A DNA stretch of 41,030 nucleotides, taken from IMG/VR virus record IMGVR_UViG_3300021425_000072, positions 1-41,030 of that record; one strand, given 5' to 3'. Positions 1 to 28,790 of the stretch are shown piece by piece. How positions within the stretch are numbered: the first letter of the stretch is position 1; each line of letters starts with the position of its first letter. The translations under genes and the position numbers were made by a program. This DNA comes from a virus (Duplodnaviria > Caudoviricetes). The notes under the pieces are model-generated. The model had not been told where the DNA came from. It did not search any database and was given only the letters and a program-made list of their open reading frames with translations.

Positions 1-2139
1 GCAGATCAAAAAATTACTGCTATCACTATCAAAAATAATATTGATGGTGTGTATCGTGTATTTGGTTATGGTGATTATGATGTAGAGAAAGCACTTATCC
101 AACCTGTAAAATATTATAAGTTTGATGACGAGTATCAACTGCTCTTAAAGTTCTTGGATATCTGGCAAGCATATATGCCTGACGTGGTTACAGGTTGGAA
201 TGTACGTTTCTTTGATATTCCCTATCTTGTTAATCGTGTTGCTAAAATACTTGGTGTAGATCAGGCAAAGAAGTTCAGTCCTTGGGGCATGATTGACTAT
301 CGTGAAGTCACACGTATGAACAAAAAGGATATGACCTATGAGATTCAGGGTGTTGCCACTCTTGACTACCTTGAACTGTTTCAAAAATATGGATATGCTT
401 ATGGTAAGCAGGAATCGTATTCACTGAATCATATCTCGTATGTCGTGCTCGGTGAAAAGAAACTTTCCTATGAAGAAAGTGGTTCACTCAAAAACCTTTA
501 TGTTGATGACTTCCAAAAGTATATCGACTATAACATGAAAGATGTTCAACTCGTTGATCGTATTGAAGATAAGATGGGTTTGATTACATTGATCATGACC
601 GTGGCATATAAGGGTGGTGTAAACTACAGGGATGCTTTCGGTGTAACAGGTATATGGGAATCTATCATCTATCGTAAACTAAATCGTGATAAGATTGCTC
701 CACCTGCAGGTAAGTCTGACTCTGTAAAGGGTGGACAGTTTGCTGGTGGTTATGTTAAAGAACCTATGGTCGGTTCTCATGATTGGGTTGTTTCGTTTGA
801 CTTAAATAGTCTATATCCTAATATCATTGTACAGTGGAATATGTCCCCAGAAACTTTGAAAAGGGAAAATACTACAACCAGTGGTGTAGACCATTATCTA
901 CAGTTCTTCGGTACGGATAGCGATCCTATTCATCCTGTTGCTCGTCAAAAAGATTTGGCAGTTGCGACCAACGGTTCTACATACAGCAAAGAAAAAGATG
1001 GCGTTATCCCTAATCTGATTATCGAATATTATGATGATCGTCGGTCTGCTAAGAACCAGATGCTTGCTGCTGAACAGGCATATGAAAAAGAAAAGACGTA
1101 TGAACTAGAGAAAGAAATTAATCGACTACAAAACCAACAGATGGCGATTAAGATTCTTATGAACTCTTTGTATGGTGCACTTGGTAACCAATATTTTAAA
1201 TATTTTGATCTACAGGTTGCGGAGGGTGTAACTCTTACTGGTCAGATGGTTATCCAGTGGGCAGAACGTGCCATGAACAAAGCAATGAATGAGGTATTAA
1301 AAACCAATGGAAAAGATTACGTTATTGCTATTGATACCGATTCTCTTTATGTTAATTTCGCTCCCCTTGTAAAACAACTCAATCCTAAAGACCCTGTGAA
1401 GTTTCTTGACAAGATATGTCAGGAACACTTTGAACCTATCATCGGTAATTCATATAAAGATTTGTACAGTAAATTTAATTGTCACAAACCACGTATGGAA
1501 ATGGGTCGTGAGGTTATTGCGGATCGCGGTATATGGACTGCGAAAAAGCGATATATTCTGAACGTGCATAATAGTGAAGGTGTGCAGTATGCTGAACCGA
1601 AACTCAAGATCATGGGTATTGAAGCGATCAAATCCTCCACTCCAGAGGTTGTCCGAGATAAATTCAAAGAAATATTTAGGGTCATCATATCGGGCAACGA
1701 AAAGGATGCTCAGAACTTCATACAGAAATTCAAACAGGATTTCAAATCACTCCCACCCGAAGCAGTGGCATTTCCGAGGTCTGTCTCGAATATTACTGAC
1801 TGGAGTGATCGCAAAACTATTTACAAGAAGGGTACACCTATTCACGTTCGTGGGTCGCTCCTCTATAACAAAACGATAAAAGATTTTAAATTAAATAATA
1901 AATATGAACTCATTGTAAATGGTACAAGAATCAAATTCTGCTATCTTAAAATGCCAAACACACTCAAAGAAAATATCATCGCCTTTCCGGATGTTATTCC
2001 TAAAGAAGTGGCACTAGATAAGTTTGTAGATTATGAAAAGCAGTTTGATAAAACTTTTGTAGAACCACTTAAACCAATCCTCGATGCTATGAACTGGTCA
2101 ATCGAGGAACAATCAACACTGGAGGATTTTTTTGGATAA
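1..2139 (+). CDS. gp43: Family B DNA polymerase, T4 gp43-like (5' truncated by the window)
   Basis: Frame open from base 1. Exo motifs GWNVRFFDIPY and YNMKDV; polymerase motifs SFDLNSLYP, KILMNSLYG, DTDS and KKRY; C-terminal TLEDFFG clamp-binding-like tail. Confidence 0.98.
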   Translation, partial: ADQKITAITIKNNIDGVYRVFGYGDYDVEKALIQPVKYYKFDDEYQLLLKFLDIWQAYMPDVVTGWNVRFFDIPYLVNRVAKILGVDQAKKFSPWGMIDYREVTRMNKKDMTYEIQGVATLDYLELFQKYGYAYGKQESYSLNHISYVVLGEKKLSYEESGSLKNLYVDDFQKYIDYNMKDVQLVDRIEDKMGLITLIMTVAYKGGVNYRDAFGVTGIWESIIYRKLNRDKIAPPAGKSDSVKGGQFAGGYVKEPMVGSHDWVVSFDLNSLYPNIIVQWNMSPETLKRENTTTSGVDHYLQFFGTDSDPIHPVARQKDLAVATNGSTYSKEKDGVIPNLIIEYYDDRRSAKNQMLAAEQAYEKEKTYELEKEINRLQNQQMAIKILMNSLYGALGNQYFKYFDLQVAEGVTLTGQMVIQWAERAMNKAMNEVLKTNGKDYVIAIDTDSLYVNFAPLVKQLNPKDPVKFLDKICQEHFEPIIGNSYKDLYSKFNCHKPRMEMGREVIADRGIWTAKKRYILNVHNSEGVQYAEPKLKIMGIEAIKSSTPEVVRDKFKEIFRVIISGNEKDAQNFIQKFKQDFKSLPPEAVAFPRSVSNITDWSDRKTIYKKGTPIHVRGSLLYNKTIKDFKLNNKYELIVNGTRIKFCYLKMPNTLKENIIAFPDVIPKEVALDKFVDYEKQFDKTFVEPLKPILDAMNWSIEEQSTLEDFFG

Positions 2140-4816: not shown

Positions 4817-5545
4817 ATGATGGAAAAGTTTTACGTTTATTTTGGTGAGTATATCGATTTGTTTAAGTCGCAAAGCACAGCACTTCCTTACAGGAAGGTT
4901 GGTTTCACTACTAACTTAGAACAACGCGAATATCAGTTGAATAGAACCAAAGGTCCAGTTGGTTATAGTTACATTGCTGCTTGGGAATGTCCTGACAAAC
5001 AGTCTATGCATGACCTAGAGTGGGTTGTACATAATTTTAATTCTGGTTCAAGGTGTGATAAGACTGAGTGGTTCGAAGATCCTGAGAATAATATTTTAGA
5101 TGAGATGGATGCCTATTGTAATCGTATGGGTTATCCTAGAGTTCCACTAGAAGGCAATGAAGTTGAGCAAAAGATTGTTCGAGAACGTGAATCTGCCAAT
5201 GAAATGATAAAACGTCTTGTTGGTATGGTAGATATCCCGAATAATTCTATTTGGATTAACTCTATTAGAAAAATAACACTTGATGGATTCCCTGCCTCTA
5301 AGTCTCCGATCGAAGTAATTCCTCAGAACCAAGTCTTGTCTATATATTTTAGAAATTCTGAATATGAGATTGATCAAGTGGCAGAGATGCTTAGTGTTTC
5401 AAAGGAATCTATAATTGTTTCTGGTGATAAGTTGAAATACAGTGCTCCAAGATACCATAGGGAAACTGATGAACGTAAAGTTGAAATTGTTCAAGAATAT
5501 ATGGAAAAGATAAAGAATTCACTTTACATAAATAACAATGTATGA
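4817..5545 (+). CDS. GIY-YIG superfamily (T5orf172/MUG113-like) nuclease, possible homing endonuclease
   Basis: FYVYF...KVGFTTNLEQR..QL, conserved E..VH and EWF; AAGGA RBS before ATG 4817. Confidence 0.7.
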   Translation: MMEKFYVYFGEYIDLFKSQSTALPYRKVGFTTNLEQREYQLNRTKGPVGYSYIAAWECPDKQSMHDLEWVVHNFNSGSRCDKTEWFEDPENNILDEMDAYCNRMGYPRVPLEGNEVEQKIVRERESANEMIKRLVGMVDIPNNSIWINSIRKITLDGFPASKSPIEVIPQNQVLSIYFRNSEYEIDQVAEMLSVSKESIIVSGDKLKYSAPRYHRETDERKVEIVQEYMEKIKNSLYINNNV

Positions 5546-5551
5546 TATAAT
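5523..5551 (+). promoter_or_regulatory. Early promoter before TET/JBP
   Basis: TTTACA-N17-TATAAT, extended TG. Confidence 0.85.
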
Positions 5552-5569: not shown

Positions 5570-6919
5570 ATGTTTAATGAAGAAATGATTGATGGTATCC
5601 GAACCATCACAGCAACACGCAAAGTAGATTGTGAGCATCTACTCAATGAGTTTCTAGACGATACTCACTTTGATATGATTGTAGATGGTGATGCAGATTT
5701 TTATGCACCACCTGTTTCTACAGTTGATGGTGCGTTCAATAGCGAAGAGAATCTTGGATTTCGCTTTCGCAAGAACGTGTTTACCAAAGAAGAGATGGAT
5801 GGTGCCTATGATGGTTTGATCGGTGCTGCCACTTTATCAAACAATCGTGGTACGTCTACTGGAACTATCGGTACACAGAAGCAAGGCAATCGTGATTGGG
5901 TTTTCCCTTGGCAAGAAGATATTATGAAACTTCTGCAAAGTAATAATCTTGAAGGTAAAACACCTCAAGATATTATGGACGACTATGTAAAGAAAAACGG
6001 TGATCTTAATTTTCACTGGGACAAACGTGCGTCACTATGGCATCGTGGTAAGATTGCTCAGGCAGGATATGAGTATGACAACTTCTTTTTAAATCTATTA
6101 CAGAATGATCAACTTACTGTTGAAAAGATTAAAGAGATCAAGAAGTTCATTACAGATACAAAATATACAGCAGCAATCCACTCTGGTATCGCTGGGTTCT
6201 ATGATCGGTATCCTCGTATTCCATTTGGTCGTGCGACTAATTACACCGAGCAGAACATGGGTAAGTTTGAAAAGTGTTATCCATATATGCGTAAACTCAA
6301 CAGCATGTTTGCTGAACTGGTTCCTGAGAGATATGCACGTCAAAAGAAAGTTGCAGAAGCATTAGATAAACGGTTTATTGTAGCAGAAGATACTGCGTTT
6401 TCTACTATCACTGTAAACAAAAACTATCGTACAACTGCGCATCGTGACGGTGCTAACTATGTTCCAGGATTTTCTAATCTATCTACCGTTACTAAAGGTG
6501 ACATCGGTTGGGAAGGTGGTTTGTTTGTACTGCCAGAATATCGTGTAGCAGTTAATCTACGTCCAGGAGATGCGTTGCTAGTAAATAATGCTGGTATCAT
6601 TCATGGTAACACTGAACTGATTCCACCTGCTGGTCTTGATATTGAAGATATGGAACGTATCTCTATGGTGTCATATATGCGTGACGGTATGCAGGAACTC
6701 AAATCAAAAGAGTACGAAACTGCTCGCTATGAGTATGTTGAGTCTCGTCGACTGAATCCTGACCATCCACTACAACGCACTAAGTGGAACGGCATCAGCG
6801 AAGGTATGTGGGCAGAAGATGAGTGGAATGATTTCCTAGTCTCTAAAGGTATGATCGACGAAGATGGACTTGTAGGAAATAAAAAGGCAGAAGTATCTTC
6901 ACTTGATGACTTCTTTTAA
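5570..6919 (+). CDS. TET/JBP-family Fe(II)/2-oxoglutarate methylpyrimidine dioxygenase
   Basis: HxD (TAHRDGAN), LRPGDALL, distal H (IHGNT) and the Rx5-aromatic signature (RISMVSY); C-terminal SLDDFF. Confidence 0.88.
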   Translation: MFNEEMIDGIRTITATRKVDCEHLLNEFLDDTHFDMIVDGDADFYAPPVSTVDGAFNSEENLGFRFRKNVFTKEEMDGAYDGLIGAATLSNNRGTSTGTIGTQKQGNRDWVFPWQEDIMKLLQSNNLEGKTPQDIMDDYVKKNGDLNFHWDKRASLWHRGKIAQAGYEYDNFFLNLLQNDQLTVEKIKEIKKFITDTKYTAAIHSGIAGFYDRYPRIPFGRATNYTEQNMGKFEKCYPYMRKLNSMFAELVPERYARQKKVAEALDKRFIVAEDTAFSTITVNKNYRTTAHRDGANYVPGFSNLSTVTKGDIGWEGGLFVLPEYRVAVNLRPGDALLVNNAGIIHGNTELIPPAGLDIEDMERISMVSYMRDGMQELKSKEYETARYEYVESRRLNPDHPLQRTKWNGISEGMWAEDEWNDFLVSKGMIDEDGLVGNKKAEVSSLDDFF

Positions 6920-6920
6920 G

Positions 6921-6949
6921 TTTACTTTCTACTCGAATTATGATATAAT
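6921..6949 (+). promoter_or_regulatory. Early promoter before the nucleotidyltransferase-kinase
   Basis: TTTACT-N17-TATAAT; ATG starts 7 nt after the -10. Confidence 0.85.
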
Positions 6950-6955
6950 AGTGAT

Positions 6956-8404
6956 ATGATAAATTGTATAATTCCAAGTGCAGGTGCAGCATCTAGATTC
7001 AAAGATCTAGGTAAAGCATATCCGAAATCTTTGCTACCATACCATGGCAAACCGATCATACAGCATAACATCGAGAAGTTGTATGATCAGGTTGACATGT
7101 TCACCATCGTTGTCAAACGAAAATATCTCGATATGTATTCAGAGATACTCGGTATGTATCCTACATTTGATAAGGTTACATTGACCATTCCCGACGAATC
7201 TAAGAACGAAGGTCCACTTACCAGTGTTTGGTCGGGTCGTCGTGAATGTGATGACGTGCTTATCGTTCTATCCGATATCATTATCGAAGATGAAGTCAAA
7301 CTTGATAAACACTTTCTATCCTATCAAATAGTACATGACTGGGAACGGTGGTGCTTGGTTGCTCCAGGTATCGAACTGTTTGATAAACCTAAAGAACGTC
7401 CTGCGGTTGAAGAACTGTGGGCGTTGAATGGTTTGTATTATGTTTCGCAGGAGGACTTCCTTCATATCGGCGATATCATTAACAATCCTATCAACGAAGA
7501 AACTCAATTTTCTTTTTGGTTAAAAGATATTGATGATCTAGAACTTCATGAGTTTTCTGTTCGTGACTTTGGTACTCTTGAGGAATATATCAACGAGCGA
7601 AAAGTTCCTGCCTGTCGCCACTTCAATGAAATCATGAGTGACGAGTACACTGTGATCAAAAGTTCAAGCGATAAGAACAAGATCTATAAAGAATATGCTT
7701 GGTTTCAAAACATACCACCCATACTCAAACCATATACTGTAAGAACGTTTGGTATCCGTTACGAACCACAGTTTGCATATACTATGGAAGCAGTCGGTAA
7801 TCCTACATTGCGTGATTATTTGATATTTCTTGGACTAGATAATTTCTCAGACTTCCTGCGTGAGGTTCGTGGTTACATCGAGCGAGAACGACATTACAAA
7901 GGTGCTGGCGACTTCTTCAGAGAAGTCAAAACTAAAACGCATGATCGTATGAAAGTCATATTTGATTACGATAAGATTCAAAAGGTTTGTGGTATGCTTG
8001 ATGATCATGAAAAGATTATTAACCAGAACACCTCGATCATGCACGGAGATATGGTTGCCAGTAACATATTCTATAACGAAAGAACAAACGAAATTAAACT
8101 GATTGACCCAAAGGGTGACTTGTACGGTTCTTTCCTGTATGACCTAGCAAAACTCAATCAAACATTTACGACTCCATATGATTTTATCGATGGCGGTTTG
8201 TATGTTGATGATTATGTCTACAAGAACCACCAGAAAAAATACGAGGATCAGTGGAGACATTGGTTACATGAACACTATGGAGAGTTCGTAGAAACTATAG
8301 ATGTTCTCACTATTAGTCTGATGTGCAGTCTTATACCTTTACACTCAGATAATATAAAGAATCAAAAATTATATAAAGATTGGTGCGATGATATATTGCT
8401 TTGA
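6956..8404 (+). CDS. Sugar-phosphate nucleotidyltransferase fused to an APH/choline-kinase-like phosphotransferase
   Basis: N-terminal IIPSAGAASRF..PKSLL..GKPII and DFGTLEEY (NTP transferase); C-terminal HGDMVASNI, LIDPKG, YDLAKL (kinase). Confidence 0.88.
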   Translation: MINCIIPSAGAASRFKDLGKAYPKSLLPYHGKPIIQHNIEKLYDQVDMFTIVVKRKYLDMYSEILGMYPTFDKVTLTIPDESKNEGPLTSVWSGRRECDDVLIVLSDIIIEDEVKLDKHFLSYQIVHDWERWCLVAPGIELFDKPKERPAVEELWALNGLYYVSQEDFLHIGDIINNPINEETQFSFWLKDIDDLELHEFSVRDFGTLEEYINERKVPACRHFNEIMSDEYTVIKSSSDKNKIYKEYAWFQNIPPILKPYTVRTFGIRYEPQFAYTMEAVGNPTLRDYLIFLGLDNFSDFLREVRGYIERERHYKGAGDFFREVKTKTHDRMKVIFDYDKIQKVCGMLDDHEKIINQNTSIMHGDMVASNIFYNERTNEIKLIDPKGDLYGSFLYDLAKLNQTFTTPYDFIDGGLYVDDYVYKNHQKKYEDQWRHWLHEHYGEFVETIDVLTISLMCSLIPLHSDNIKNQKLYKDWCDDILL

Positions 8405-8729
8405 CTTAGATGACACAATCTGCTTTCCTAACCATGATGCAGAAACTACTCATGAAAAGTATGCTTTGGCAACTCCTAATGAAGAAGTCATCAGTGCGAT
8501 AAATAAACTAAAGGTTGGGAACACCATAATAATCTATACTGCTAGACGTATGTTAACTCATAATGGTGATCTAGATAAAATTTATAAAGACGTTGGTAAG
8601 GTTACAGTGGATTGGTTGAAGAAACATAACGTACCATACGATGATATAATATTTGGTAAACCATATGCCGATGTTTATGTCGACGACAAAGCACTCAATG
8701 TTGACAAAATTAAGACTTTACTTAATTGA
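8388..8729 (+). CDS. Capless HAD phosphatase (EcbF/BcbF capsule-biosynthesis phosphatase type)
   Basis: FDLDDTI, YTAR, GKP, YVDDKA motifs; 113 aa; overlaps the upstream gene. Confidence 0.88.
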   Translation: MIYCFDLDDTICFPNHDAETTHEKYALATPNEEVISAINKLKVGNTIIIYTARRMLTHNGDLDKIYKDVGKVTVDWLKKHNVPYDDIIFGKPYADVYVDDKALNVDKIKTLLN

Positions 8730-8745
8730 TAAAATATAGTATAAT
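8717..8745 (+). promoter_or_regulatory. Early promoter before the glycosyltransferase
   Basis: TTTACT-N17-TATAAT. Confidence 0.8.
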
Positions 8746-8750
8746 AAGGA

Positions 8751-9575
8751 ATGACAATGAAGATATTAATTCCGACATATAAACGTGAAGAAATGCAAAA
8801 GTGTTATTACGAAATGCCAGAGTCTATTCGTAAAAAGATTATTGTTTGCACGCATAGTGGTCGTGGTAAATTGTTACAAGAAAAAAACCCTGGAATGACT
8901 GTACATGAGTTCGAAGGTGAACTACAGATTCCGAAGGTTCGTCAAGCATGTTTAGAGTTTGATGAAAAGGTTTTAGTGATAGACGACCAATGTATATTCT
9001 GGAAGCGAAACTATGTTGAAGGTAAAATCAAGCATGTTCGCCTATCACAACCAGAAGAATATGAGCAAATGTTCGAAGAGATCGAACGTGAACTTGATGA
9101 TTACTTTTGGGTTGGTCCATCACCTAAAAGCAGCAACACTTTACATAAAGAAAGTCGCTCCGAGATCACTCGATCATATTCCTGCTATGGTTTGAACAGA
9201 GGTATGTTCAGAGAAGCAGATGTACGGTTTACTGGTCTAGAAGAAATCAATCCAACTGCTACTATCCTTGAAGATTTCTATGCCTTACTTGCTATGTTCA
9301 CTAAAGGTTATAAGAATCTTGTGTTACATGATTGGGTGTTTGACCATAAGCATGGAGCGAAGGGTGGCAACTCTGTACATAGAAGGAATGCTAATCAGGA
9401 TGAGTCTCAGAAAGAACTTATAAAATTGTTCCCTCAGTTTGTAAAACAATATGAAAAAGAAAATCCATCGTGGGTTGCCGAAGAAGGTTCTTCTACTCGT
9501 ACCGAAGTTCGAGTTGCTTGGAAAAAATCTTTTAAAGAAAAAGTTACTTCAGATCTTGAAGAGTTTTTTGGATAG
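8751..9575 (+). CDS. GT-A fold glycosyltransferase, TET/JBP-associated type
   Basis: ILIPTYKR N-terminal strand, VIDD, LEDF..LL.MF..G, GGN; lies in the TET/JBP cluster; C-terminal DLEEFFG. Confidence 0.8.
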   Translation: MTMKILIPTYKREEMQKCYYEMPESIRKKIIVCTHSGRGKLLQEKNPGMTVHEFEGELQIPKVRQACLEFDEKVLVIDDQCIFWKRNYVEGKIKHVRLSQPEEYEQMFEEIERELDDYFWVGPSPKSSNTLHKESRSEITRSYSCYGLNRGMFREADVRFTGLEEINPTATILEDFYALLAMFTKGYKNLVLHDWVFDHKHGAKGGNSVHRRNANQDESQKELIKLFPQFVKQYEKENPSWVAEEGSSTRTEVRVAWKKSFKEKVTSDLEEFFG

Positions 9576-9592
9576 ATTGGATATAAGTAATT

Positions 9593-10033
9593 ATGAAAAC
9601 AGGAATCACTGCATCTACATTTGACCTGCTACACGCTGGTCATGTACAAATGCTTCGAGAAGCAAAAGATCAATGTGAGTATCTTATTTGTGCTTTACAA
9701 ATAGACCCTTCTTTAGATCGTGCAGACAAAAACCCACCTGTTCAAACAATCGTAGAAAGGTTTATTCAATTATCAGCAATCAGATATGTTGATGAGGTAA
9801 TTCCCTATGCTACAGAAAAGGATCTTGAAGATATCTTGAATATGTATGATATAGATGTCAGGATAATAGGAGAAGAATATAAAAAGAAAACATTTACAGG
9901 TCGTGCTATTTGCTCAAAGCGAGGGATAGAAATTTATTACAACAAGAGAGATCACAGATTCTCTTCAAGTGATCTCAGGAAAAGAGTTTCCGACAGGGAG
10001 AATAAAAATGTCAAAGACATCAGTTTGGATTAA
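9593..10033 (+). CDS. Glycerol-3-phosphate cytidylyltransferase-like (TagD family)
   Basis: TFDLLHAGH (HxGH), ER..QL..IRYVDEV, RFSSSDLR. Confidence 0.85.
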   Translation: MKTGITASTFDLLHAGHVQMLREAKDQCEYLICALQIDPSLDRADKNPPVQTIVERFIQLSAIRYVDEVIPYATEKDLEDILNMYDIDVRIIGEEYKKKTFTGRAICSKRGIEIYYNKRDHRFSSSDLRKRVSDRENKNVKDISLD

Positions 10034-10163: not shown

Positions 10164-11216
10164 ATGAGTATTATGGATAAACTGAAAAGCAATAGTAAAG
10201 TCAAGGCAACTGAAGTCTTGTCTGACTCTAAGTTTTTCAATGAAAAGGACATGGTGACTACCAGCGTTCCTATGATGAATGTTGCCTTATCAGGTGATAT
10301 TGACGGAGGACTTACTCCAGGACTTACAGTACTAGCAGGTCCATCTAAGCACTTCAAAACGAGTTTCGCTTTGATTATGGCAGCAGCATATCTCGAAAAA
10401 TATAAAGATGCTGTTATGTTATTTTATGATTCAGAGTTTGGTTCGCCTCAAGCATACTTTGAACAATATAATATTGATACATCACGAGTGTTGCATACAC
10501 CAATTACGAATGTAGAAGAACTCAAGTTTGACCTGATCGGGCAACTTGAGGGTTTAGATCGTGATGATAAAGTTATCGTTGTTATTGACTCTGTCGGTAA
10601 CTTAGCATCTAAGAAAGAACTTGAGGATGCTATCAACGAAAAGTCAGTTGCAGATATGAGTCGTGCTAAAGCATTAAAAGGTTTGTTCCGTATGACCACA
10701 CCTTATCTTGCTATGAAAAACATTCCACTGCTTGCGGTGAATCATACTTATATGGAAATCGGTTTATTCCCTAAAGCGATTGTATCGGGTGGTACAGGTA
10801 TCTATTACAGTGCAGATAACATTTGGATCCTTGGTCGTCAACAAGATAAGGTTGGCACAGAAATCAAGGGATATCATTTTGTAATCAACGTGGAGAAGTC
10901 TCGTTATGTTAAAGAAAAAACTAAGATTCCTATTTCCGTTTCTTGGGATGGTGGTGTGCAGCATTATTCTGGTTTGCTCTCCGTGGCACTTGATGGACAG
11001 TACGTGGCGAAACCTAGCAATGGTTGGTATTGTCGTGTCGATCGTAGCACTGGAGAAATGGTGGACCCCAAAGTCAGAGAAAAAGAAACTCTCACCGAAG
11101 AGTTCTGGAAACCAATCCTAGAAGAAACTGACTTTAAAGAGTTTGTAAAAGGTAAATTTGCTATCGGTGGTAATCTTTCTAATGCATTAGAAGATGTAGA
11201 TAACGATGCAGCATGA
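10164..11216 (+). CDS. uvsX: RecA-like recombinase UvsX
   Basis: AGPSKHFKT Walker A variant, YDSEFG, IDSVGNLASKKE, GGTGIYYSAD. Confidence 0.97.
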   Translation: MSIMDKLKSNSKVKATEVLSDSKFFNEKDMVTTSVPMMNVALSGDIDGGLTPGLTVLAGPSKHFKTSFALIMAAAYLEKYKDAVMLFYDSEFGSPQAYFEQYNIDTSRVLHTPITNVEELKFDLIGQLEGLDRDDKVIVVIDSVGNLASKKELEDAINEKSVADMSRAKALKGLFRMTTPYLAMKNIPLLAVNHTYMEIGLFPKAIVSGGTGIYYSADNIWILGRQQDKVGTEIKGYHFVINVEKSRYVKEKTKIPISVSWDGGVQHYSGLLSVALDGQYVAKPSNGWYCRVDRSTGEMVDPKVREKETLTEEFWKPILEETDFKEFVKGKFAIGGNLSNALEDVDNDAA

Positions 11217-11502
11217 GGAAAATGTAACGTACGAATTAGTCCCTAATCCTGTTCACGAACAGGCTTGGGGTGTTCGTATCCTCGAAGGAATGTATAACGA
11301 AACCACCTTACAGTATGGTGCGATTAGTTTCAACGAGGATGGATCTGACACCCTATCGTTTAATTTTGATATTGTAGAATCACCTGATCTTGAGTTATCT
11401 ACCGAAGATGAAGAACTGCAAATTTTTGCAGGTAAACTCCTAGAGCATATCATAACTAAAGCGATCGAAGCAGATGAACTTGAAATGCAAGAACGCGAAT
11501 AA
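11206..11502 (+). CDS. gp40-like head vertex assembly chaperone
   Basis: Small acidic ORF between uvsX and gp41, the T4 position of gene 40. Confidence 0.55.
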   Translation: MQHEENVTYELVPNPVHEQAWGVRILEGMYNETTLQYGAISFNEDGSDTLSFNFDIVESPDLELSTEDEELQIFAGKLLEHIITKAIEADELEMQERE

Positions 11503-11506
11503 TCAC

Positions 11507-11535
11507 TTTACTTTTACAATAGGATATGATATAAT
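11507..11535 (+). promoter_or_regulatory. Early promoter before gp41
   Basis: TTTACT-N17-TATAAT; ATG starts 7 nt after the -10. Confidence 0.85.
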
Positions 11536-11541
11536 AATTAA

Positions 11542-12921
11542 ATGCAAGCAAATATAGAACAAACAATACTAAGAAATATCCTAACAGATGAAAATTTTAT
11601 GCGGAAGGTTCTTCCCTTCATAAAGGCAGATTATTTTCAAGGTGTTTATAAATCACTGTTCAAAGAAGCAGCGAAGTATGTTGCAAAGTATAATCGCCTT
11701 CCTACTTCTGAAACACTTACTATTGAACTGCAAGAAACGACAAATATGTCGGACGATCAGTTTCGCGTTGCTATGGATATTGTTCCACAGTTATTCGCGA
11801 TTGAAACGATTGACGATAAATGGTTGGTTGATAGTACAGAAAAGTGGTGTCAGGATAGAGCAATCCATAATGCGATTATGGAATCAATCTCGATTATTGA
11901 CGGTAAACATGAATCACTAACTAAGGGAGCATTGCCTGATCTTTTATCTAAAGCATTGGGTGTTGCATTTGATACTAATGTCGGACATGACTACATCGAC
12001 AACTTCGAAGACCGATACGAATTCTACCATAAAGAGGAGTCCAGAATACCTTTCGATCTTGAATACTTTAACAAGATCACGAAGGGAGGAATACCTAATA
12101 AAACCCTTAATATTGCCCTTGCTGGTACTGGGGTTGGTAAGTCTTTATTTATGTGTCACGTTGCTTCAGGTGCTTTGGTGGATGGTAAGAACGTTCTTTA
12201 TATCACCATGGAAATGGCTGAGGAACGCATTGCGGAACGCATAGATGCGAATCTATTAAATGTTCCCATAGACCAATTACCAAATATGTCTAAGGATATG
12301 TATCGTACTAAAGTTGAAGATATCGCTCGTAAGACTACAGGTAAATTGATTGTTAAAGAATATCCTACTGGTTCTGCTCATGCAGGTCACTTCCGTGCGT
12401 TACTCAACGAACTGAAACTGAAACGTCAATTTGAACCAGATATCATCTTTATTGATTACCTAAATATTTGTTCAAGTTCAAGAATGAAAGGAATGGGTGG
12501 TGCTATCAATTCTTACAACTACATTAAGGCGATTGCAGAAGAACTTCGCGGTCTCGCGGTTGAGTTCGATGTCCCTGTATTTTCCGCCACCCAAACTACT
12601 AGGTCAGGCTATGGAAATAGTGATGTTGGTTTGGAAGATACGTCTGAGTCTTTTGGTTTGCCAGCTACAGCGGATCTCATGTTCGCTCTTATATCGACTG
12701 AGGAACTGGAGAAGATAGGGCAAATTATGGTTAAACAGTTGAAAAACAGGTACAATGATCCGACTCGTGATAAACGATTTGTTGTTGGCGTTGATCGTGC
12801 TAAGATGCGACTGTTTGATGTTGATGAAAATGAACAAACATTAACTGATGATACACCTGTGTTTGACAAATCTGAAATGCAAGAAAAAATGTCGAAGTTT
12901 AAAGATTTTACGGTGACATAA
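11542..12921 (+). CDS. gp41: Replicative DnaB-like helicase, T4 gp41
   Basis: AGTGVGKS, ITMEMAE, IDYLNI, SATQTTR, SESFGLPATAD, KQLKNRY. Confidence 0.97.
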   Translation: MQANIEQTILRNILTDENFMRKVLPFIKADYFQGVYKSLFKEAAKYVAKYNRLPTSETLTIELQETTNMSDDQFRVAMDIVPQLFAIETIDDKWLVDSTEKWCQDRAIHNAIMESISIIDGKHESLTKGALPDLLSKALGVAFDTNVGHDYIDNFEDRYEFYHKEESRIPFDLEYFNKITKGGIPNKTLNIALAGTGVGKSLFMCHVASGALVDGKNVLYITMEMAEERIAERIDANLLNVPIDQLPNMSKDMYRTKVEDIARKTTGKLIVKEYPTGSAHAGHFRALLNELKLKRQFEPDIIFIDYLNICSSSRMKGMGGAINSYNYIKAIAEELRGLAVEFDVPVFSATQTTRSGYGNSDVGLEDTSESFGLPATADLMFALISTEELEKIGQIMVKQLKNRYNDPTRDKRFVVGVDRAKMRLFDVDENEQTLTDDTPVFDKSEMQEKMSKFKDFTVT

Positions 12922-16646: not shown

Positions 16647-17660
16647 ATGAGAAAATATTTAATTGCTGCAGCAGCAGTAATGACAATGGCATGGGCAACG
16701 GTTGCTCAGGCAGATCCGTTTAAGGTTGGTTTCGTATATGTTGGACCAGTCGGCGATCATGGTTGGACATATATGCACGACAAAGGTCGTCAGCAAGTTG
16801 AAGAACACTTTGGTGATGCGGTTGAAACTGTATTTGTTGAATCAGTACCAGAAGGACCTGATGCCGAACGTGTAATGCGTGGTATGATTGCAGAAGGTGC
16901 GGACATGATCTTCACTACTTCTTTTGGTTATATGGAACAAACAGTAAAGGTTGCCAAAGAGAATCCTAATATCCTCTTTGAACATGCGACAGGTTATAAA
17001 ACAGCACCAAACCTTTCTGTATATTCCTCACGTTTTTATGAGGGTCGTTATGTACAAGGTGTAATTGCTGGTCATATGTCAAAGGCAGGCAAAGCTGGTT
17101 ATATTGCATCATTCCCGATTCCGGAAGTGATTCGTGGTATCAATGCTTTTTATCTCGGTGCAATCTCTGTAAATCCAGATTTTGATATTGACGTTGTATG
17201 GGTAAATACATGGTATGATCCAGGTAAAGAAGCAGATGCCGCAAAGGTTTTGATGGCAGGTGGTGCTGATATTATTACTCAGCATACAGATTCTCCTTCA
17301 CCTTTGGCAGCAGCATCTGCTAATGGTATTAAAGGTTTCGGTCAAGCATCAGATATGATTCAGTTTGCACCTGATACTCAATTGACTGCTATCCTTGATG
17401 AGTGGGGTCCATATTATATCGCACGTGTACAAGCAGCAATGGACGGTACATGGACTGAAACCAATACTTGGGGTGGTATGGACACAGGAATGGTTGATAT
17501 GGCACCAATGACAAATATGTCAGAAGATCTTGCTGCACATGCAGAGCATATTGCACATCATATCAAGACAGGTCACTTCAAACCATTTGGTGATCTAGAT
17601 GATGGTGCTCTTGCAACTATGATGGAATATGTCGACGGATTAGATGCGGCAAAACCCTAA
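16647..17660 (+). CDS. BMP/PnrA/Med-family ABC transporter substrate-binding protein (purine/nucleoside type)
   Basis: Signal peptide ending AQA; GFVYVGPVGDHGWT..HD.GR, FTTSFGY, FEHATGY, NTWYDPGKE, ITQHTDS. Confidence 0.93.
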   Translation: MRKYLIAAAAVMTMAWATVAQADPFKVGFVYVGPVGDHGWTYMHDKGRQQVEEHFGDAVETVFVESVPEGPDAERVMRGMIAEGADMIFTTSFGYMEQTVKVAKENPNILFEHATGYKTAPNLSVYSSRFYEGRYVQGVIAGHMSKAGKAGYIASFPIPEVIRGINAFYLGAISVNPDFDIDVVWVNTWYDPGKEADAAKVLMAGGADIITQHTDSPSPLAAASANGIKGFGQASDMIQFAPDTQLTAILDEWGPYYIARVQAAMDGTWTETNTWGGMDTGMVDMAPMTNMSEDLAAHAEHIAHHIKTGHFKPFGDLDDGALATMMEYVDGLDAAKP

Positions 17661-17667
17661 ATAGTAT

Positions 17668-18077
17668 TGTTCGATGAAGCAAATCGAAAGGTAAACTGGA
17701 CGGGGGTGCGATACCCCCCGCCTCCACCATAATGAGATTGAAATGAAAGCAAAAACTAGAAAAAAAATAAACAAAATAAATAAAAAAGAACAAAAAAGAT
17801 TAGGAAGTTCTAATGTTGTTCGTACAAAACATTTTGCTTATGGACAAAAAACTGGTGCTGCAAACAAGGGAAGATCTCTTTCCCAAGAAGAAATTGATCT
17901 CATTATGATGGGGGCGAAATAGGATCGACAGGTGCTGAATAGGTAAGTGGAGAACACGGTAGGTGACGACCGTAAATCGCACAAGACGTTAAATGCAAAC
18001 GATAACAATGCATATGGGGATTATGCTCTAGCAGCATAGTTACTCGGGGTGGGTACTACCTAGCAACAGAAGTGCCA
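17668..18077 (+). ncRNA. ssrA: Circularly permuted two-piece tmRNA (acceptor piece ~17668-17729; intervening segment 17730-17909; coding piece 17910-~18077)
   Basis: T-arm GGGGG-TGCGATA-CCCCC plus CGCCTCC-A-CCA (17702-17729) lies upstream of GGGGGCGAAATAGGATCGAC (17910). The two form a 7-bp acceptor stem with G3-U70. Tag frame 17995-18039 reads ANDNNAYGDYALAA*; 3' CCTAGCAACAGAA motif present. Outer ends approximate. Confidence 0.93.
17743..17922 (+). CDS. Basic 59 aa ORF inside the tmRNA intervening segment
   Basis: MKAKTRKKINKINKKEQKRLGSSNVVRTKHFAYGQKTGAANKGRSLSQEEIDLIMMGAK*; weak GAG-type RBS; stop lies inside the tmRNA coding piece. Confidence 0.55.
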   Translation: MKAKTRKKINKINKKEQKRLGSSNVVRTKHFAYGQKTGAANKGRSLSQEEIDLIMMGAK

Positions 18078-18095
18078 TTAATTTTTGGAGTTGCA

Positions 18096-18788
18096 ATGTA
18101 CGCAGTTGGAATATTTCTATTACAAATAGCAGCATACGTTTCTATTATACCAATGATAATGTATGCTGATTGGTATCACTATTTAATCGCTTTCTTCATG
18201 TATTTCATGAACGGATGTCTTGGTATGATTATGGGATACCATAGATTGCTGACGCACAGATCGTTTGAATGTCCTATCTGGTTTGAAAGATTTATTACTT
18301 TGTGTGCGACTATAGGTTTGACTGGACCTGCTATAGATTGGGTTGCTATTCATAAAGCACACCATAGGTTCGCTGATACTGAAAAAGACCCACATAGTCC
18401 AGATCATTTAGGTGTGTTCAGAGTTCACTTTCTTACCATGTTTGCTAAAGTGGATATAAAGTATGCAGGAAGATTACTTAGAGATAAATTTTTATTGTTT
18501 CAACGAAAGTTTTATTTTGTTCTTAATTTAATTTATGCTACTTTGCTATTTTTTGCTGACCCATTTGCATTGGTATATGCATGGTTGTTTCCAGCAGCAG
18601 TTCTCATATTATTAGGAACATCGGTTTTATCTATCAACCACAGGAATAACAAACCACATAATAGTATCATTCACGGTTTACTTACTTGGGGTGATGGATT
18701 CCACGAAACACACCATGATAATCCAAACAAAATAAGATTGCATAAATATGATATATGCGGTTATTTGATAGAGAAATGGTTTGCTTAA
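18096..18788 (+). CDS. Membrane fatty acid desaturase (delta-9 type)
   Basis: His boxes HRLLTH, HKAHH, HETHH; DPHSP; TM segments; ATG 18096 after GGAG. Confidence 0.92.
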   Translation: MYAVGIFLLQIAAYVSIIPMIMYADWYHYLIAFFMYFMNGCLGMIMGYHRLLTHRSFECPIWFERFITLCATIGLTGPAIDWVAIHKAHHRFADTEKDPHSPDHLGVFRVHFLTMFAKVDIKYAGRLLRDKFLLFQRKFYFVLNLIYATLLFFADPFALVYAWLFPAAVLILLGTSVLSINHRNNKPHNSIIHGLLTWGDGFHETHHDNPNKIRLHKYDICGYLIEKWFA

Positions 18789-18877
18789 AGTTTGGGTAAA
18801 TGCGAATCCAGTACCGTTCTGGAAGTTATATTATGCTTTTAAATACGGTATAGTGTTAGAAAGTTTACAGGAATTAG

Positions 18878-19597
18878 ATGAGTATTTGGAAAAAAAGAAC
18901 TGAACTGCCAGTCTTCAAACGATTAGAACAATTTAAGTTCGATCCAATTGAACTAGCATCAGCATATGAAGAGTTCTCTAATACTAAAACTTGGGATGGT
19001 TTGGGTAATGAATATGCTAGTTTATGTGAAACATACACAAGACTCCCGAAGATGTTTTTCAAAGAAGAAGAACTTAAAGATGTAGATTGTGTTTGTGATA
19101 TAGAATGGGAACAAGCTAGTTACCAACAACTATCATTGGTTGAATGGGATGAAGATTTTAGTTTAGACAAAAGAACTGAAAAGTCAGGAACTAGATGGGA
19201 CTCTACAGTCGCTAAAAGAGATGCTAAAGCAGATGAAAGATGGTTTCGAAAAAGAGTAAAAGATACACCAGATTATTTTAACTATGTCCTTGATACGATA
19301 GGCAAAGATATCGTCCATAGAACAAGATTTGCTAAATTAGCACCGAAGTCTGAAATAAAAGAACACATAGATTATAATACTGAGTATGGGATCCGTTTAC
19401 ATATACCGATCATCACGAATGAAAACGCAGTGTTTGGTGGTATCGGTCAAAACGGTAGAGAAGAGACCCACTTTCCAGCAGATGGAAGTGTTTGGTTTAT
19501 TAATCCTGGCGTTAAACATTGGGCAAAAAATGATGGTGATGAAGAACGTGTACATTTAATTATTTCAGTAGATAGTCAAGAGATATTGAATGCCTAA
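18878..19597 (+). CDS. Fe(II)/2OG oxygenase, aspartyl/asparaginyl beta-hydroxylase-like
   Basis: EHID...RLHIPIITN...KHWAKN...RVHLII. Confidence 0.85.
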   Translation: MSIWKKRTELPVFKRLEQFKFDPIELASAYEEFSNTKTWDGLGNEYASLCETYTRLPKMFFKEEELKDVDCVCDIEWEQASYQQLSLVEWDEDFSLDKRTEKSGTRWDSTVAKRDAKADERWFRKRVKDTPDYFNYVLDTIGKDIVHRTRFAKLAPKSEIKEHIDYNTEYGIRLHIPIITNENAVFGGIGQNGREETHFPADGSVWFINPGVKHWAKNDGDEERVHLIISVDSQEILNA

Positions 19598-20186
19598 GTT
19601 TTACCAAGAACTCAGCGATGAGTTTTCAAGTTTATGGTTGCCAAGATTCCGTTCGTTATATGATAAAGTACATGCTTCTCAAAACGCCCATCATGCTTAT
19701 TGGAAGTATGTTCTTCACCCAGATAGAATAAAATCCGATTATCTAAAAGACTTTCCATGGCTCACTGAAGTTCCTACATGGAATATAGATGAAAATTTAA
19801 TTATATTTTTTAAAAATAGTGGTAAAGACTACAACCATATAATGGCGCACAAAGATCCAGATAATGTTGTTTGGTCTATAACTATGCCATTATATGGTTG
19901 TGATAGTGATACAGTCACCACTTGGTTGAATCCCATAGAAAATGAAAATACATATCGGGCAGATGGATCTAAGGGGTATGATGATAATGTCGAAATGCTT
20001 GGTTGTGACTATAATGAAATCGAAAGTTATTCATTCAACGACAGAGCAATTATATTCAAAAGCGATGTTTGGCATAAAGCACGCACAAAGCACAACAGAG
20101 ATGAAACACGTGTATTAGCAAAACTATGGGTTCCAAATTTACAGTATGAATATATGCAAGAGGTTTTAGGTGAGCATTTATTATAA
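19590..20186 (+). CDS. Putative Fe(II)/2OG oxygenase
   Basis: AHKD...ITMPL...WHKA...TRV; paralog of the next ORF. Confidence 0.65.
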   Translation: MPKFYQELSDEFSSLWLPRFRSLYDKVHASQNAHHAYWKYVLHPDRIKSDYLKDFPWLTEVPTWNIDENLIIFFKNSGKDYNHIMAHKDPDNVVWSITMPLYGCDSDTVTTWLNPIENENTYRADGSKGYDDNVEMLGCDYNEIESYSFNDRAIIFKSDVWHKARTKHNRDETRVLAKLWVPNLQYEYMQEVLGEHLL

Positions 20187-20808
20187 ATTTCTCAGTGAAG
20201 AGTTTTCTGATTTGTGGATATCTAGAACCAGAGAACTGTATGATCATGCAATAGAAACTGGTCAATACAAAGAACTACACATGAAATATATTATTACTCC
20301 TACGCACATGCGTGAGTATTACATTGAAAAATTTCCTTGGTTAGATGACTTGCCCTTATATAATCCTAGAGAACATTCAGTTGTATTTTTTAGATTTAAT
20401 GGTTCAGACCCCGAAGTAAATCATTTTGAAGTGCATAAAGATCCGACCGAAGCTTGGGCAAATCTAAATGTACCAGTCTACAACTGTACAAAGGAAACTA
20501 GAACAGTGTGGGTAGAACCTATTGGTGAGGAATATAGTCAACACGAAGAAAGAGCAGGATCTCACATTATATCTGGACAAACGAACAGTGAACATTTGAG
20601 GTCATCATATAAAGAAGTCGAGACTATGCACATAACCGATAGAGCATGTTTATTTAAAGGGGACGAGTGGCATAAAGTAGAAGTTGATCATGATAGAGAT
20701 GAGTGGAGAGTCATGGCAAAATATTGGTCAAGGGAAAACGACTGGGATGATTTGATCAAAAAATATAGCGAGCATATTGATGAAGAATATAGCATACATA
20801 CCACTTGA
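20170..20808 (+). CDS. Putative Fe(II)/2OG oxygenase
   Basis: VHKD...LNVPV...WHKV...WRV; shares LS.EFS.LW..R.R.LYD and FPWL with 19590-20186. Confidence 0.65.
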   Translation: MSIYYKFLSEEFSDLWISRTRELYDHAIETGQYKELHMKYIITPTHMREYYIEKFPWLDDLPLYNPREHSVVFFRFNGSDPEVNHFEVHKDPTEAWANLNVPVYNCTKETRTVWVEPIGEEYSQHEERAGSHIISGQTNSEHLRSSYKEVETMHITDRACLFKGDEWHKVEVDHDRDEWRVMAKYWSRENDWDDLIKKYSEHIDEEYSIHTT

Positions 20809-21367
20809 TATTCCAAAATTTAATTTAGAATCAATTATAGAAAAATATAACTTCTATCCCCATCATCTTTATCCAGATGCTTGGGATTGTTTGCCAGTTT
20901 GCGGGAAAACTACTGATTGGAATCAGTCTGCATTTTATAAAGCATATGAAAATAGATATGACTCTGGAGAAGTGCATTGGAACATTCCGGAAATGAAACC
21001 AATCTTAGAATACTATCCAGGAGAGGTTACTCATGCTCAGGTATTAAATCAAAAAGCAAACATAGTCGCTCATAAAGACACTCCGATACTTCGTAAGCAA
21101 CCTGAACCAAATGGTTTTAAAATTCTTCTAAATAATATTTTAGAAAAAAGTTTCTATGTAAAAATAAATGGCAAAAGAATACACATAGAATTACCAAACA
21201 CAACTAATTGCTTTGCTATAAATGAACATGATATATTGCATGGAGCGACAATGCCTCAGCAAGAAAAATACATTGTGAGTTGTTTTGGTATTATAGACGA
21301 GGCAAAGCATAAAGAACTAATATCAAGAAGTGTAGAAAAATATGGCGAATATGCAATCTACTTCTGA
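20777..21367 (+). CDS. Putative Fe(II)/2OG oxygenase
   Basis: AHKD...FAINE..LHGA...K. Confidence 0.55.
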   Translation: MMKNIAYIPLDIPKFNLESIIEKYNFYPHHLYPDAWDCLPVCGKTTDWNQSAFYKAYENRYDSGEVHWNIPEMKPILEYYPGEVTHAQVLNQKANIVAHKDTPILRKQPEPNGFKILLNNILEKSFYVKINGKRIHIELPNTTNCFAINEHDILHGATMPQQEKYIVSCFGIIDEAKHKELISRSVEKYGEYAIYF

Positions 21368-21968
21368 TTATGGAATATTTCCTCTCGGTGATTATGACTT
21401 CGAGGAAACGACAGTCACATTATCAGAATATCCTGATGTGGTTGACCTTGGTATAGAGGTTGATGCCGATAGGTTATATCAAGAATATTTGAATATGAGA
21501 AAACCAAGTAAAGACCATTATTATCTCAGCATGAGTAAGAAATTTAAACTTGATGCAAAGAAAGTGATGGAAAATTTTGAAGAACTTGGATTTAAACAGG
21601 ATAATTATGGTGGGTATGGGTTTCAGAGAGCAGGTGAATATACAAAGAGCGTTTTAGATAGTTTACCTGTTAAGACATTTCGAAAACATTTTACTCTAGC
21701 AAAACCAGGATGGGTTACTAAGTTTCACTCCGATCATAAACAGTTTCAGAATCATGGATTTAGATTAGTTATACCAATGAACTGTGATGCCCATATAAAG
21801 TACAAAGAAAATGAATATAGACTTAAACGTGGATCGATGTACTTTTGGAATATTGTAAAGGAACATGCTGGTTGGAATCCAACCGATCAAGAACGTGTGA
21901 TCATTATGGCACAGATGAATAACGATAGGTTGATAAATGAAGGTAAATTGGTCAAGCAACTATTATGA
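21342..21968 (+). CDS. Fe(II)/2OG oxygenase, Asp/Asn beta-hydroxylase-like
   Basis: FHSD...RLVIPM...GSMYFWN...EHAGWN...ERV. Confidence 0.75.
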   Translation: MANMQSTSDYGIFPLGDYDFEETTVTLSEYPDVVDLGIEVDADRLYQEYLNMRKPSKDHYYLSMSKKFKLDAKKVMENFEELGFKQDNYGGYGFQRAGEYTKSVLDSLPVKTFRKHFTLAKPGWVTKFHSDHKQFQNHGFRLVIPMNCDAHIKYKENEYRLKRGSMYFWNIVKEHAGWNPTDQERVIIMAQMNNDRLINEGKLVKQLL

Positions 21969-28598: not shown

Positions 28599-28762
28599 TG
28601 AAAGCACATAAACCTGAAATGATTGCCGCATGGGCACAACAAAATAAGATCGAAGGGTTTGAACAGTATGACCCCAAATGGCAAGAGAAGAATCGTATGC
28701 GTGCAATGAAATGGAGACTAAAGCAAGATGAGAGAAAAAACTCTGAAACTCAAAGAACATAG
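28598..28762 (+). CDS. Hypothetical protein (54 aa, not in the ORF track)
   Basis: TGATG overlap; MKAHKPEMIAAWAQQNKIEGFEQYDPKW... Confidence 0.6.
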   Translation: MKAHKPEMIAAWAQQNKIEGFEQYDPKWQEKNRMRAMKWRLKQDERKNSETQRT

Positions 28763-28790
28763 TATTAAACTTTTTAAGAAGGTAAAAAAA

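What the first reader, a model, noticed from the sequence alone, without database searches (positions are those of the whole stretch)
5570..10033. Candidate new DNA hypermodification pathway: TET/JBP oxygenase plus glycosyltransferase with their own donor-synthesis module, in the T4 gp42/beta-gt slot
Seen: five consecutive genes encode a TET/JBP dioxygenase (HRD...H...Rx5Y), a nucleotidyltransferase-kinase fusion, a HAD phosphatase, a GT-A glycosyltransferase and a TagD-like cytidylyltransferase, all between gp43 and uvsX. Established: T4 places its modification genes (gp42 hydroxymethylase, beta-gt) in that interval; TET/JBP enzymes hydroxylate the methyl of 5mC or T in DNA, and associated GT-A enzymes glycosylate the product (as in base J). 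Inference: this phage oxidises a methylpyrimidine post-replicatively and attaches a sugar or polyol it activates itself through kinase, nucleotidyltransferase and phosphatase steps. A dedicated donor module suggests the adduct is not plain glucose and may be an undescribed base.
Basis: partly seen in the sequence, partly recalled or inferred. Interest (0 to 1): 0.9.

Follow-up and report, generated by a model that had tools for sequence, protein, structure and literature searches.

The report
Phage fructose-on-thymine DNA modification cassette
A T4-like phage carries four genes, found together in many other phages, that likely oxidise thymine in its own DNA and would attach a self-activated sugar to it; the sugar-activating enzyme resembles bacterial fructose-capsule proteins more than the known phage arabinose enzymes, so the predicted product is a fructose-bearing DNA base.

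Summary
The five ORFs are real and the domain calls hold. Four of them (TET/JBP, nucleotidyltransferase-kinase, HAD, TET-associated GT-A) form a recurring module: all four lie together in 27 of 80 related viral loci, in three gene orders, and in cultured phage DLP6. The TagD-like gene is not core (7 of those 27; absent from DLP6). The oxidised base is probably thymine: the closest TETs (81-84% identical) sit with hmU-kinase/amino-acid:DNA-transferase genes, and DLP6 has no C5-methyltransferase or ThyA-type hydroxymethylase. The donor genes have the layout of the published phage UDP-arabinose enzymes AfhE/AfhF. However, the kinase domain is much closer to the bacterial kinase/HAD/nucleotidyltransferase trio tied to fructose-containing glycans (27 of 27 TET-linked domains; median 137 versus 32 bits), and no arabinose-5-phosphate isomerase was found. 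Best guess: fructofuranosyl-hydroxymethyluracil, isobaric with base J (about 0.4; thymine plus some self-made furanose about 0.7). TET and GT carry the polymerase's C-terminal tail, probably for clamp binding. Verdict: new variant of a known kind, chemically untested; DLP6 virion DNA can test it directly.

The parts
5570..6919 (+). TET/JBP 5-methylpyrimidine dioxygenase, probably a thymine dioxygenase; ends in the same tail as gp43
   Evidence: PF12851 E 1.6e-17; HxD...H...R conserved; nested with AADT+kinase-linked TETs, FastTree support 0.998; tail
6956..8404 (+). Fusion of sugar-1-phosphate nucleotidyltransferase (aa 1-216) and APH-fold sugar-phosphate kinase (aa 219-482); AfhE-like layout, kinase closer to BcbE-type capsule/O-antigen proteins
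8388..8729 (+). HAD phosphatase of the EcbF/BcbF - AfhF group; overlaps the fusion gene by 17 nt
   Evidence: TIGR01689 E 2e-18, below cut-off; 34% identical to RB69p051, E 1e-14; 49-57 bits to Bcb-type versus 38-42 to AfhF-type HADs
8751..9575 (+). TET-associated GT-A glycosyltransferase; ends in the same tail as gp43
   Evidence: PF20691; R12, D78-D79, E174-D175 invariant in 20 sequences, matching the R...DDD...EDY/F motif quoted in the Pyle preprint; GT-A fold
9593..10033 (+). TagD-like cytidylyltransferase; a neighbour, not a core part of the module
   Evidence: present in 7 of 27 four-gene loci and in 14 TET contigs without the donor genes; no match in DLP6 or four IMG/VR records with the module (no positive control in that call)
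5523..5551 (+). sigma70-type promoter motif before TET
   Evidence: 10 matches in the window versus 0.03 expected; the pattern was read from these three sites, so the other 7 are the independent ones
6921..6949 (+). same promoter motif, 6 nt before the ATG of the fusion gene (would give a leaderless message)
8717..8745 (+). same promoter motif, 5 nt before the ATG of the GT
49..2139 (+). gp43 family-B DNA polymerase (N-terminus cut by the window edge); carries the tail shared with TET and GT
10164..11216 (+). uvsX, right border of the exchangeable cassette

Best explanation
The TET/JBP enzyme likely oxidises thymine in already replicated phage DNA to 5-hydroxymethyluracil, and the GT-A would attach to it a furanose that the kinase, phosphatase and nucleotidyltransferase are predicted to activate, most likely fructose taken from fructose-6-phosphate. 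Proposed steps, all inferred and ordered by analogy with AfhE/AfhF: (1) the kinase phosphorylates the anomeric OH of Fru-6-P to give Fru-2,6-P2; (2) the HAD removes the 6-phosphate; (3) the nucleotidyltransferase makes NDP-fructofuranose; (4) the TET makes hmU; (5) the GT forms fructofuranosyloxymethyl-uracil, same mass as base J. TET and GT probably ride the gp45 clamp through the tail they share with gp43, while the donor enzymes lack it. The likely purpose is protection from restriction. Shown here: genes, folds, catalytic motifs, co-occurrence, tree positions, tails, promoters. Not shown: any activity, the base, the sugar. Odds: DNA modification with a self-made donor about 0.9; thymine as acceptor about 0.8; fructose as the sugar about 0.5; jointly about 0.4.
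For: Module: of the 80 loci, 54 have a full-length fusion; 32 of 54 carry a TET, 27 carry all four genes, 15 carry a thymidylate-synthase-like gene instead, none carries both and 7 carry neither. It occurs in three gene orders, on at least four separate TET lineages, in DLP6 and in two further metagenome contigs. Thymine: nearest TETs L003, L004, L008 (81-84% identical; support 0.998) lie with ADDT + P-loop kinase genes; 29 of 52 TET contigs have that pair, which PMC8989533 and PMC13229309 link to T hypermodification. DLP6 has no PF00145 and no PF00303 match (RB69 control gave 2). By eye the core motifs resemble clade C1 T-dioxygenases such as 5mYOX197. Fructose: kinase domain scores 114.5 bits on a Bcb-type profile versus 20.8 on an AfhE profile; 27 of 27 TET-linked domains go the same way; path length 3.6-3.8 versus 7.4-7.6. 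The C-lobe motif is shared with Bcb-type and differs in AfhE. The trio lies in the E. coli O92 cluster, whose polysaccharide is titled a fructan in the reference list of PMC7685785. BcbE and BcbG knockouts lose capsule fructose (PMC13552107). No SIS isomerase in DLP6, Enterococcus phage 9183, G001 or G002 (1 of 5 records, the RB69 control). Tail: 3 of 134 window ORFs have it (gp43, TET, GT); across loci 20 of 24 gp43, 50 of 73 TET, 24 of 33 module GT, 0 of 70 fusion, 0 of 44 HAD, 0 of 17 CTase (slightly wider pattern).
Against: The phage kinases form their own clade (99.7/97), and its link to the Bcb-type clade is weak (76/41). AfhE sits on a long branch, so distance cannot fix the substrate. 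Identity to Bcb-type proteins is only about 26-28%. The layout (intact nucleotidyltransferase fused to the kinase, no separate BcbG) is that of AfhE. I had no P. multocida sequences: 'Bcb-type' rests on one HAD above the TIGR01689 cut-off, the gene trio and the O92 cluster. The O92 kinase gene was split in the fetched genome, so a 75%-identical cluster stood in. No paper I read gives biochemistry for BcbE/F/G. G001 and G002, which have the module, each encode a C5-methyltransferase elsewhere (2 of 5 records), and the window is only a 41-kb fragment. My local C5-MT probe missed two divergent methylases that Pfam found, so 'none near TET' is weak. No ParB was found in 5 records; ParB-less clade C1 enzymes were reported inactive in E. 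coli, and 5mYOX197 alone gave under 0.5% hmU. The GT's closest relatives (65%) go with a different donor set.
Confidence: 0.4

Rival explanations
1. Same pathway on thymine, but the donor is another universal pentose or ketose phosphate (xylulose-, ribulose-, ribose-5-P or sedoheptulose-7-P).
For: The phage kinases are a separate clade from both reference groups; no isomerase would be needed; the kinase half of the gene is exchanged between near-identical phages, 58-77% nucleotide identity against 93-100% in the flanking genes; close GTs pair with a BcbG-like NTase-HAD + cupin-like + phosphodiesterase-like set.
Against: The only sugar tied to the nearer reference group in the papers I read is fructose.
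Confidence: 0.2
2. The donor is UDP-D-arabinofuranose made as by AfhE/AfhF from host arabinose-5-phosphate, giving arabinosyl-hmU.
For: Same two-protein layout as RB69 gp52:53/gp51; HAD 34% identical to RB69p051; kinase piece E 1e-6 to RB69p052; RB69 keeps its module in the same gp43-uvsX interval; two AfhE-type phages show no isomerase within the 4 kb fetched; Gram-negative hosts make arabinose-5-P for Kdo (own knowledge).
Against: 0 of 27 TET-linked kinase domains score better on the AfhE profile; different C-lobe motif; no SIS gene in 4 of 4 module-bearing records searched.
Confidence: 0.17
3. The acceptor is 5hmC: a C5-methyltransferase elsewhere in the genome supplies 5mC, as in the Burke/Pyle systems, and the self-made sugar goes on cytosine.
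For: G001 and G002 encode the module and a C5-MTase; T-dioxygenases also oxidise 5mC in vitro (abstract); most of this genome is unseen.
Against: DLP6 (complete record) has the module but no C5-MTase; nearest TETs go with T-hypermodification genes; published 5mC-oxidising TETs have an adjacent C5-MT.
Confidence: 0.13
4. The GT and donor genes glycosylate a protein or host surface glycan, and the TET acts separately or is inactive.
For: Kinase, HAD and cytidylyltransferase have capsule/O-antigen relatives; phage surface-glycan clusters are described (PMC7824862).
Against: The GT is of the TET-associated family and has the polymerase tail; the full-length fusion goes with a TET or a thymidylate-synthase-like gene in 47 of 54 loci and never with both; 0 of 80 bacterial loci carry a TET or this GT.
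Confidence: 0.06

Closest known systems
AfhE/AfhF UDP-D-arabinofuranose module of phages HY126, RB69 (gp52:53, gp51, gp55) and DLP3 (PMC13326640, sections 25, 27)
   Same: Nucleotidyltransferase-kinase fusion plus HAD phosphatase beside DNA-modifying genes; detectable homology.
   Different: No isomerase; acceptor made by a TET after replication rather than by a dCMP hydroxylase; GT-A instead of GT-B; kinase on a distant branch with another C-lobe motif.
BcbE/BcbF/BcbG-type trio of fructose-containing capsules and O-antigens (P. multocida B/E, PMC13552107; E. coli O92)
   Same: Kinase domain and HAD are the nearest cellular relatives found; shared C-lobe motif.
   Different: The phage fusion keeps an intact nucleotidyltransferase signature and has no separate BcbG; the acceptor would be DNA; about 27% identity; separate clade.
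Phage T-dioxygenases, clade C1 (PMC13229309) and TET_JBP + kinase + AADT clusters (PMC8989533)
   Same: Catalytic motifs and, by eye, core sequence; sister TETs have the same kinase/AADT partners.
   Different: About 450 aa against about 300, with a long insert and a clamp-type tail; no ParB found; GT plus donor genes in place of kinase/AADT; none of the sequences I saw in the supplement is of this long type (part 2 of 4 read).
Phage C5-MT + TET + GT cytosine glycosylation (PMC8256090; bioRxiv 2023.12.21.572611)
   Same: TET followed by a GT-A with the same active-site motif; subclass II GTs depend on a partner enzyme for the donor.
   Different: No adjacent C5-MT; a three-step donor route instead of an epimerase; the preprint's main text has no hit for kinase, nucleotidyltransferase, pentose or fructose.
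Base J (JBP + JGT)
   Same: T to hmU to glycosyl-hmU with a GT-A; the predicted product has the same mass.
   Different: Base J uses host UDP-glucose; relatives L009/L010/L013 with a lone TAGT fit that version better (inference).

Membership tests
TET/JBP dioxygenases | PF12851 above cut-off with HxD...H iron ligands and 2OG-binding Arg | tested here: met
   63.6 bits versus 34.9; H291, D293, H345, R363 invariant
Phage T-dioxygenases (clade C1/C2) | No neighbouring C5-MT; association with T-hypermodification genes | tested here: met
   the local C5-MT probe has limited sensitivity, and 2 of 9 records searched have a distant C5-MT
Phage T-dioxygenases (clade C1/C2) | Tree placement with tested 5mYOX enzymes | not tested
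   their sequences were only seen in a supplement and compared by eye
Phage T-dioxygenases (clade C1/C2) | T to hmU activity on DNA | not testable with these tools
   needs an assay
ParB-dependent subclass | Co-encoded ParB | tested here: not met
   0 of 5 related records have PF02195; none among the window proteins scanned; the window's genome is incomplete
TET-associated GT (TAGT, GT-A) | PF20691 above cut-off, GT-A fold, R...DD...ED motif | tested here: met
   29.1 versus 27.5 bits
AfhE/AfhF UDP-arabinose module | NTase-kinase fusion plus HAD | tested here: met
AfhE/AfhF UDP-arabinose module | Kinase inside the AfhE clade | tested here: not met
AfhE/AfhF UDP-arabinose module | Phage arabinose-5-phosphate isomerase | tested here: not met
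   (RB69 control positive); no SIS hit in the window or module loci
BcbE/F/G fructosylation trio | HAD above the TIGR01689 cut-off | tested here: not met
   66.5 versus 162 bits; RB69p051 scores 49.5
BcbE/F/G fructosylation trio | Kinase inside the bacterial capsule clade | tested here: inconclusive
   nearer than AfhE, but a separate clade with weak joining support; true BcbE not in the tree
BcbE/F/G fructosylation trio | Separate BcbG-type nucleotidyltransferase | tested here: not met
   no BcbG-profile hit of 45 bits or more in the window or four-gene loci; the role would be filled by the fused domain

The most novel reading that the evidence does not exclude
These phages carry a ketose on their DNA: fructofuranosyl-hydroxymethyluracil, a mass twin of base J, made at the replication fork by clamp-tethered TET and GT enzymes from an NDP-fructose that a capsule-type kinase/phosphatase/nucleotidyltransferase route supplies. 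The cassette is one interchangeable option behind a conserved TET, and the same donor route also serves pre-replicative cytosine pathways.
Probability: 0.35. Interest if true: 0.85.

Novelty: new variant of a known kind. Interest (0 to 1): 0.66.

Why it matters
If true, it adds a new sugar class to DNA chemistry, and one that a mass-only screen would file as base J. It would also give a compact two-protein handle on how fructose is activated for bacterial capsules and O-antigens, which the papers I read address only genetically. Whatever the sugar, one TET lineage is shown to swap whole chemistries behind it (furanose donor, lone GT, Galf mutase + GT, amino-acid transferase, inositol genes), and a cultured phage, DLP6, makes the prediction directly testable.

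Tried and rejected
Five-gene pathway with CDP-polyol: rejected, the cytidylyltransferase does not track the module and has close relatives in 22 phage records. Single operon: rejected, three promoters. Plain AfhE/AfhF orthology: my first guess, lowered. The tree was the quick version and warned of long branches; rebuilt it with 32 rows (30 of the 86, picked as representatives, plus two E. coli proteins). No solved AfhE or BcbE structure turned up by sequence or fold, so no active-site comparison was possible; absence there shows nothing. True P. multocida BcbE was not among the 80 genome loci returned. The metagenome scan gave only 3 full-length matches of 79 loci, one being the window's own contig. 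The DLP6 paper reports an 18-enzyme digest, but the result sentence is garbled in the held text. No clamp-tail complex model was obtained, so binding rests on the motif. Not-in-print claim: nine answered full-text searches plus one search showed no paper describing this four-gene module or a fructosylated DNA base. Iyer et al. 2013 was not held; Mahler 2025, He et al. and Michael 2021 were not looked up and are known only as cited. The Pyle preprint's supplements (closed) may list DLP6, and the PNAS 2026 dataset already tallies APH (75-80 contigs) and NTP-transferase domains near 5mYOX genes.


Full report
Observation. The five ORFs are present as described. Pfam, PHROGs and NCBIfam give Tet_JBP, a nucleotidyltransferase with a weak choline/MTR-kinase signal, an EcbF-BcbF-type HAD, a TET-associated glycosyltransferase and a TagD-like cytidylyltransferase. 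AlphaFold models confirm two domains in the fusion (1-216 nucleotidyltransferase, Z 22.8; 219-482 APH-fold kinase, Z 17.5) and a GT-A fold for the GT (Z 12.8). Catalytic motifs are intact in alignments. The context is a T4-like replication region (gp43, uvsX, gp41, thyX). The held genome is only the window itself.

What belongs together. A scan with the fusion alignment returned the best 80 of 252 confirmed viral loci. With local profiles, 54 of 80 have a full-length fusion; 32 of these 54 have a TET, 27 have TET, fusion, HAD and GT together, 15 have a thymidylate-synthase-like gene (usually with a GT-B-like gene) instead, none has both and 7 have neither. Many contigs are near-duplicates, so these are not independent counts. 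The independent evidence is three gene orders and at least four separate TET lineages. Cultured Stenotrophomonas phage DLP6 has GT-HAD-fusion-TET in a row; its record calls the TET an SNF2 protein and omits the HAD. Two further metagenome contigs repeat the window's order. The cytidylyltransferase is in 7 of the 27 four-gene loci, in 14 TET contigs without donor genes, and was not found in DLP6 or four IMG/VR records with the module. I therefore drop it from the core.

An exchangeable cassette. Close relatives keep TET (74-84% identical) and uvsX but change what lies between: AADT + P-loop kinase (L006-L008), the same with inositol-1-phosphate synthase (L003, L004) or with GATase and GNAT (L011), an unassigned 348-aa ORF + UDP-galactopyranose mutase (L005), or a lone TAGT (L009, L010). 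Of 52 distinct TET contigs, 29 have AADT + kinase, 12 another TAGT, 2 the mutase and 2 the donor genes.

Acceptor base. The window's TET is nested with L003, L004 and L008 (support 0.998). PMC8989533 (passages) reads such TET + kinase + AADT contigs as thymine oxidisers, and PMC13229309 (parts 1, 2, 4, 5 of 7) shows T oxidation for clades C1 and C2. By eye the core resembles the C1 sequences in its dataset, but ours is about 150 residues longer. DLP6 has no C5-methyltransferase, ParB or ThyA-family gene, which leaves T as the obvious substrate there. Against: G001 and G002 encode a C5-MTase elsewhere (2 of 9 records searched; four of the nine are 30-46% fragments), my local methylase probe missed divergent members, and ParB-less C1 enzymes were reported inactive in E. 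coli.

Donor. PMC13326640 (sections 25, 27, 28, 29) describes AfhE (arabinose-5-P kinase + UDP-arabinose pyrophosphorylase) and AfhF (HAD). The window has that layout and detectable homology to RB69's genes, so the chemistry is very likely anomeric phosphorylation, removal of the terminal phosphate and nucleotidylation. The kinase, however, is far from AfhE: 11-13 bits against 44-68 for capsule-type and RSL1 proteins, 76 and 66 bits for two E. coli O-antigen-cluster proteins. With four-sequence profiles of each group, 27 of 27 TET-linked kinase domains prefer the capsule type (medians 137 and 32), and tree distances are 3.6-3.8 versus 7.4-7.6. The C-lobe motif is shared with the capsule type only. 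In bacteria this kinase comes with a HAD (71 of 80 loci) and a BcbG-like nucleotidyltransferase (78 of 80), and no SIS gene was seen within 5 kb (0 of 80). The trio lies in the O92 cluster, a fructan according to a reference title in PMC7685785 (passages). BcbE and BcbG knockouts lose capsule fructose, and BcbF was predicted to take part (PMC13552107, passages). Fructose-6-phosphate needs no isomerase, which fits its absence from DLP6, Enterococcus phage 9183, G001 and G002. Limits: the phage kinases are their own clade (99.7/97) with weak support for joining the capsule clade (76/41), AfhE is long-branched, true BcbE was not available, and that the capsule-type kinase is BcbE is partly recalled. 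Fructose is therefore the leading guess, not a result.

Coupling to replication. Only 3 of 134 window ORFs end in L[DE]xF[FLY]: gp43, TET and GT. Across loci the tail is common on gp43, TET and GTs and absent from the donor enzymes and the cytidylyltransferase. That a gp43 C-terminal tail binds the gp45 clamp is my own knowledge of T4/RB69; earlier scan notes raised the same idea. TET, fusion and GT each follow a sigma70-type motif found 10 times in the window against 0.03 expected, which suggests early expression.

Novelty. The parts and the kind of pathway are published (PMC8256090 passages; Pyle preprint passages; PMC13229309; PMC13326640). Ten full-text searches showed no description of this combination or of fructose on DNA; Iyer 2013 was not held, and the preprint's supplements were closed. 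Other papers seen: PMC11780129, PMC11924219, PMC7901785, PMC5349666, PMC7824862 (passages only). Verdict: new variant of a known kind; thymine plus a self-made furanose about 0.7, fructose specifically about 0.4; interest 0.66.

Noticed in passing
window 7520-8400 versus L001: The kinase half of the fusion gene is 58-77% identical in DNA to a phage whose flanking genes are 93-100% identical; alleles of this domain appear to be exchanged by recombination.
   Followed up: partly
L023:6165-8822, L024:2311-3467, L025:275-1940: GTs 65% identical to the window's GT sit beside a TET with a different putative donor set: BcbG-like nucleotidyltransferase-HAD fusion (L023), a small cupin-like ORF and a phosphodiesterase-like ORF (the last two named by eye; no Pfam or NCBIfam hit).
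   Followed up: partly
L039:8721-9953, L046:12165-13451: In loci where the donor genes go with a thymidylate-synthase-like gene and a GT-B-like gene, a divergent C5-cytosine methylase follows directly (PF00145, E 1e-18 and 5e-11).
   Followed up: no
L019:5908-12439 (Enterococcus phage 9183): A related HAD + fusion pair lies with a thymidylate kinase, a thymidylate-synthase-like gene and a GT-like gene in a phage of a Gram-positive host, with no SIS isomerase in the genome; a second cultured test case for the sugar.
   Followed up: partly
L150:4855-13249 (Ralstonia phage RSL1): Capsule-type kinase and separate nucleotidyltransferase lie with an APS kinase, a sulfotransferase-like gene and a hydroxymethyltransferase; possibly a sulfated sugar on DNA.
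   Followed up: no
L003:9745-14045, L004, L022, L132: TET + AADT + kinase cassettes that include inositol-1-phosphate synthase.
   Followed up: no
L018:9961-10281 and 10268-11959 (DLP6): The HAD ORF is unannotated in the GenBank record, and the fusion (AAY80_029) was called a ModA ADP-ribosyltransferase in the genome paper.
   Followed up: yes
window 18072-25279: A run of about ten short genes with three Asp/Asn-hydroxylase-like and one TauD-like 2OG-Fe oxygenase and a fatty-acid desaturase; several neighbours look similar but have no Pfam hit.
   Followed up: no
window 16647-17660 and 28728-29228: Host-like transport genes: a Bmp/PnrA-family ABC substrate-binding protein and a Na+/Pi cotransporter domain.
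   Followed up: no
window 16611, 29287, 32360, 36998: Four T4 late-promoter octamers on the + strand, none near the modification genes.
   Followed up: no
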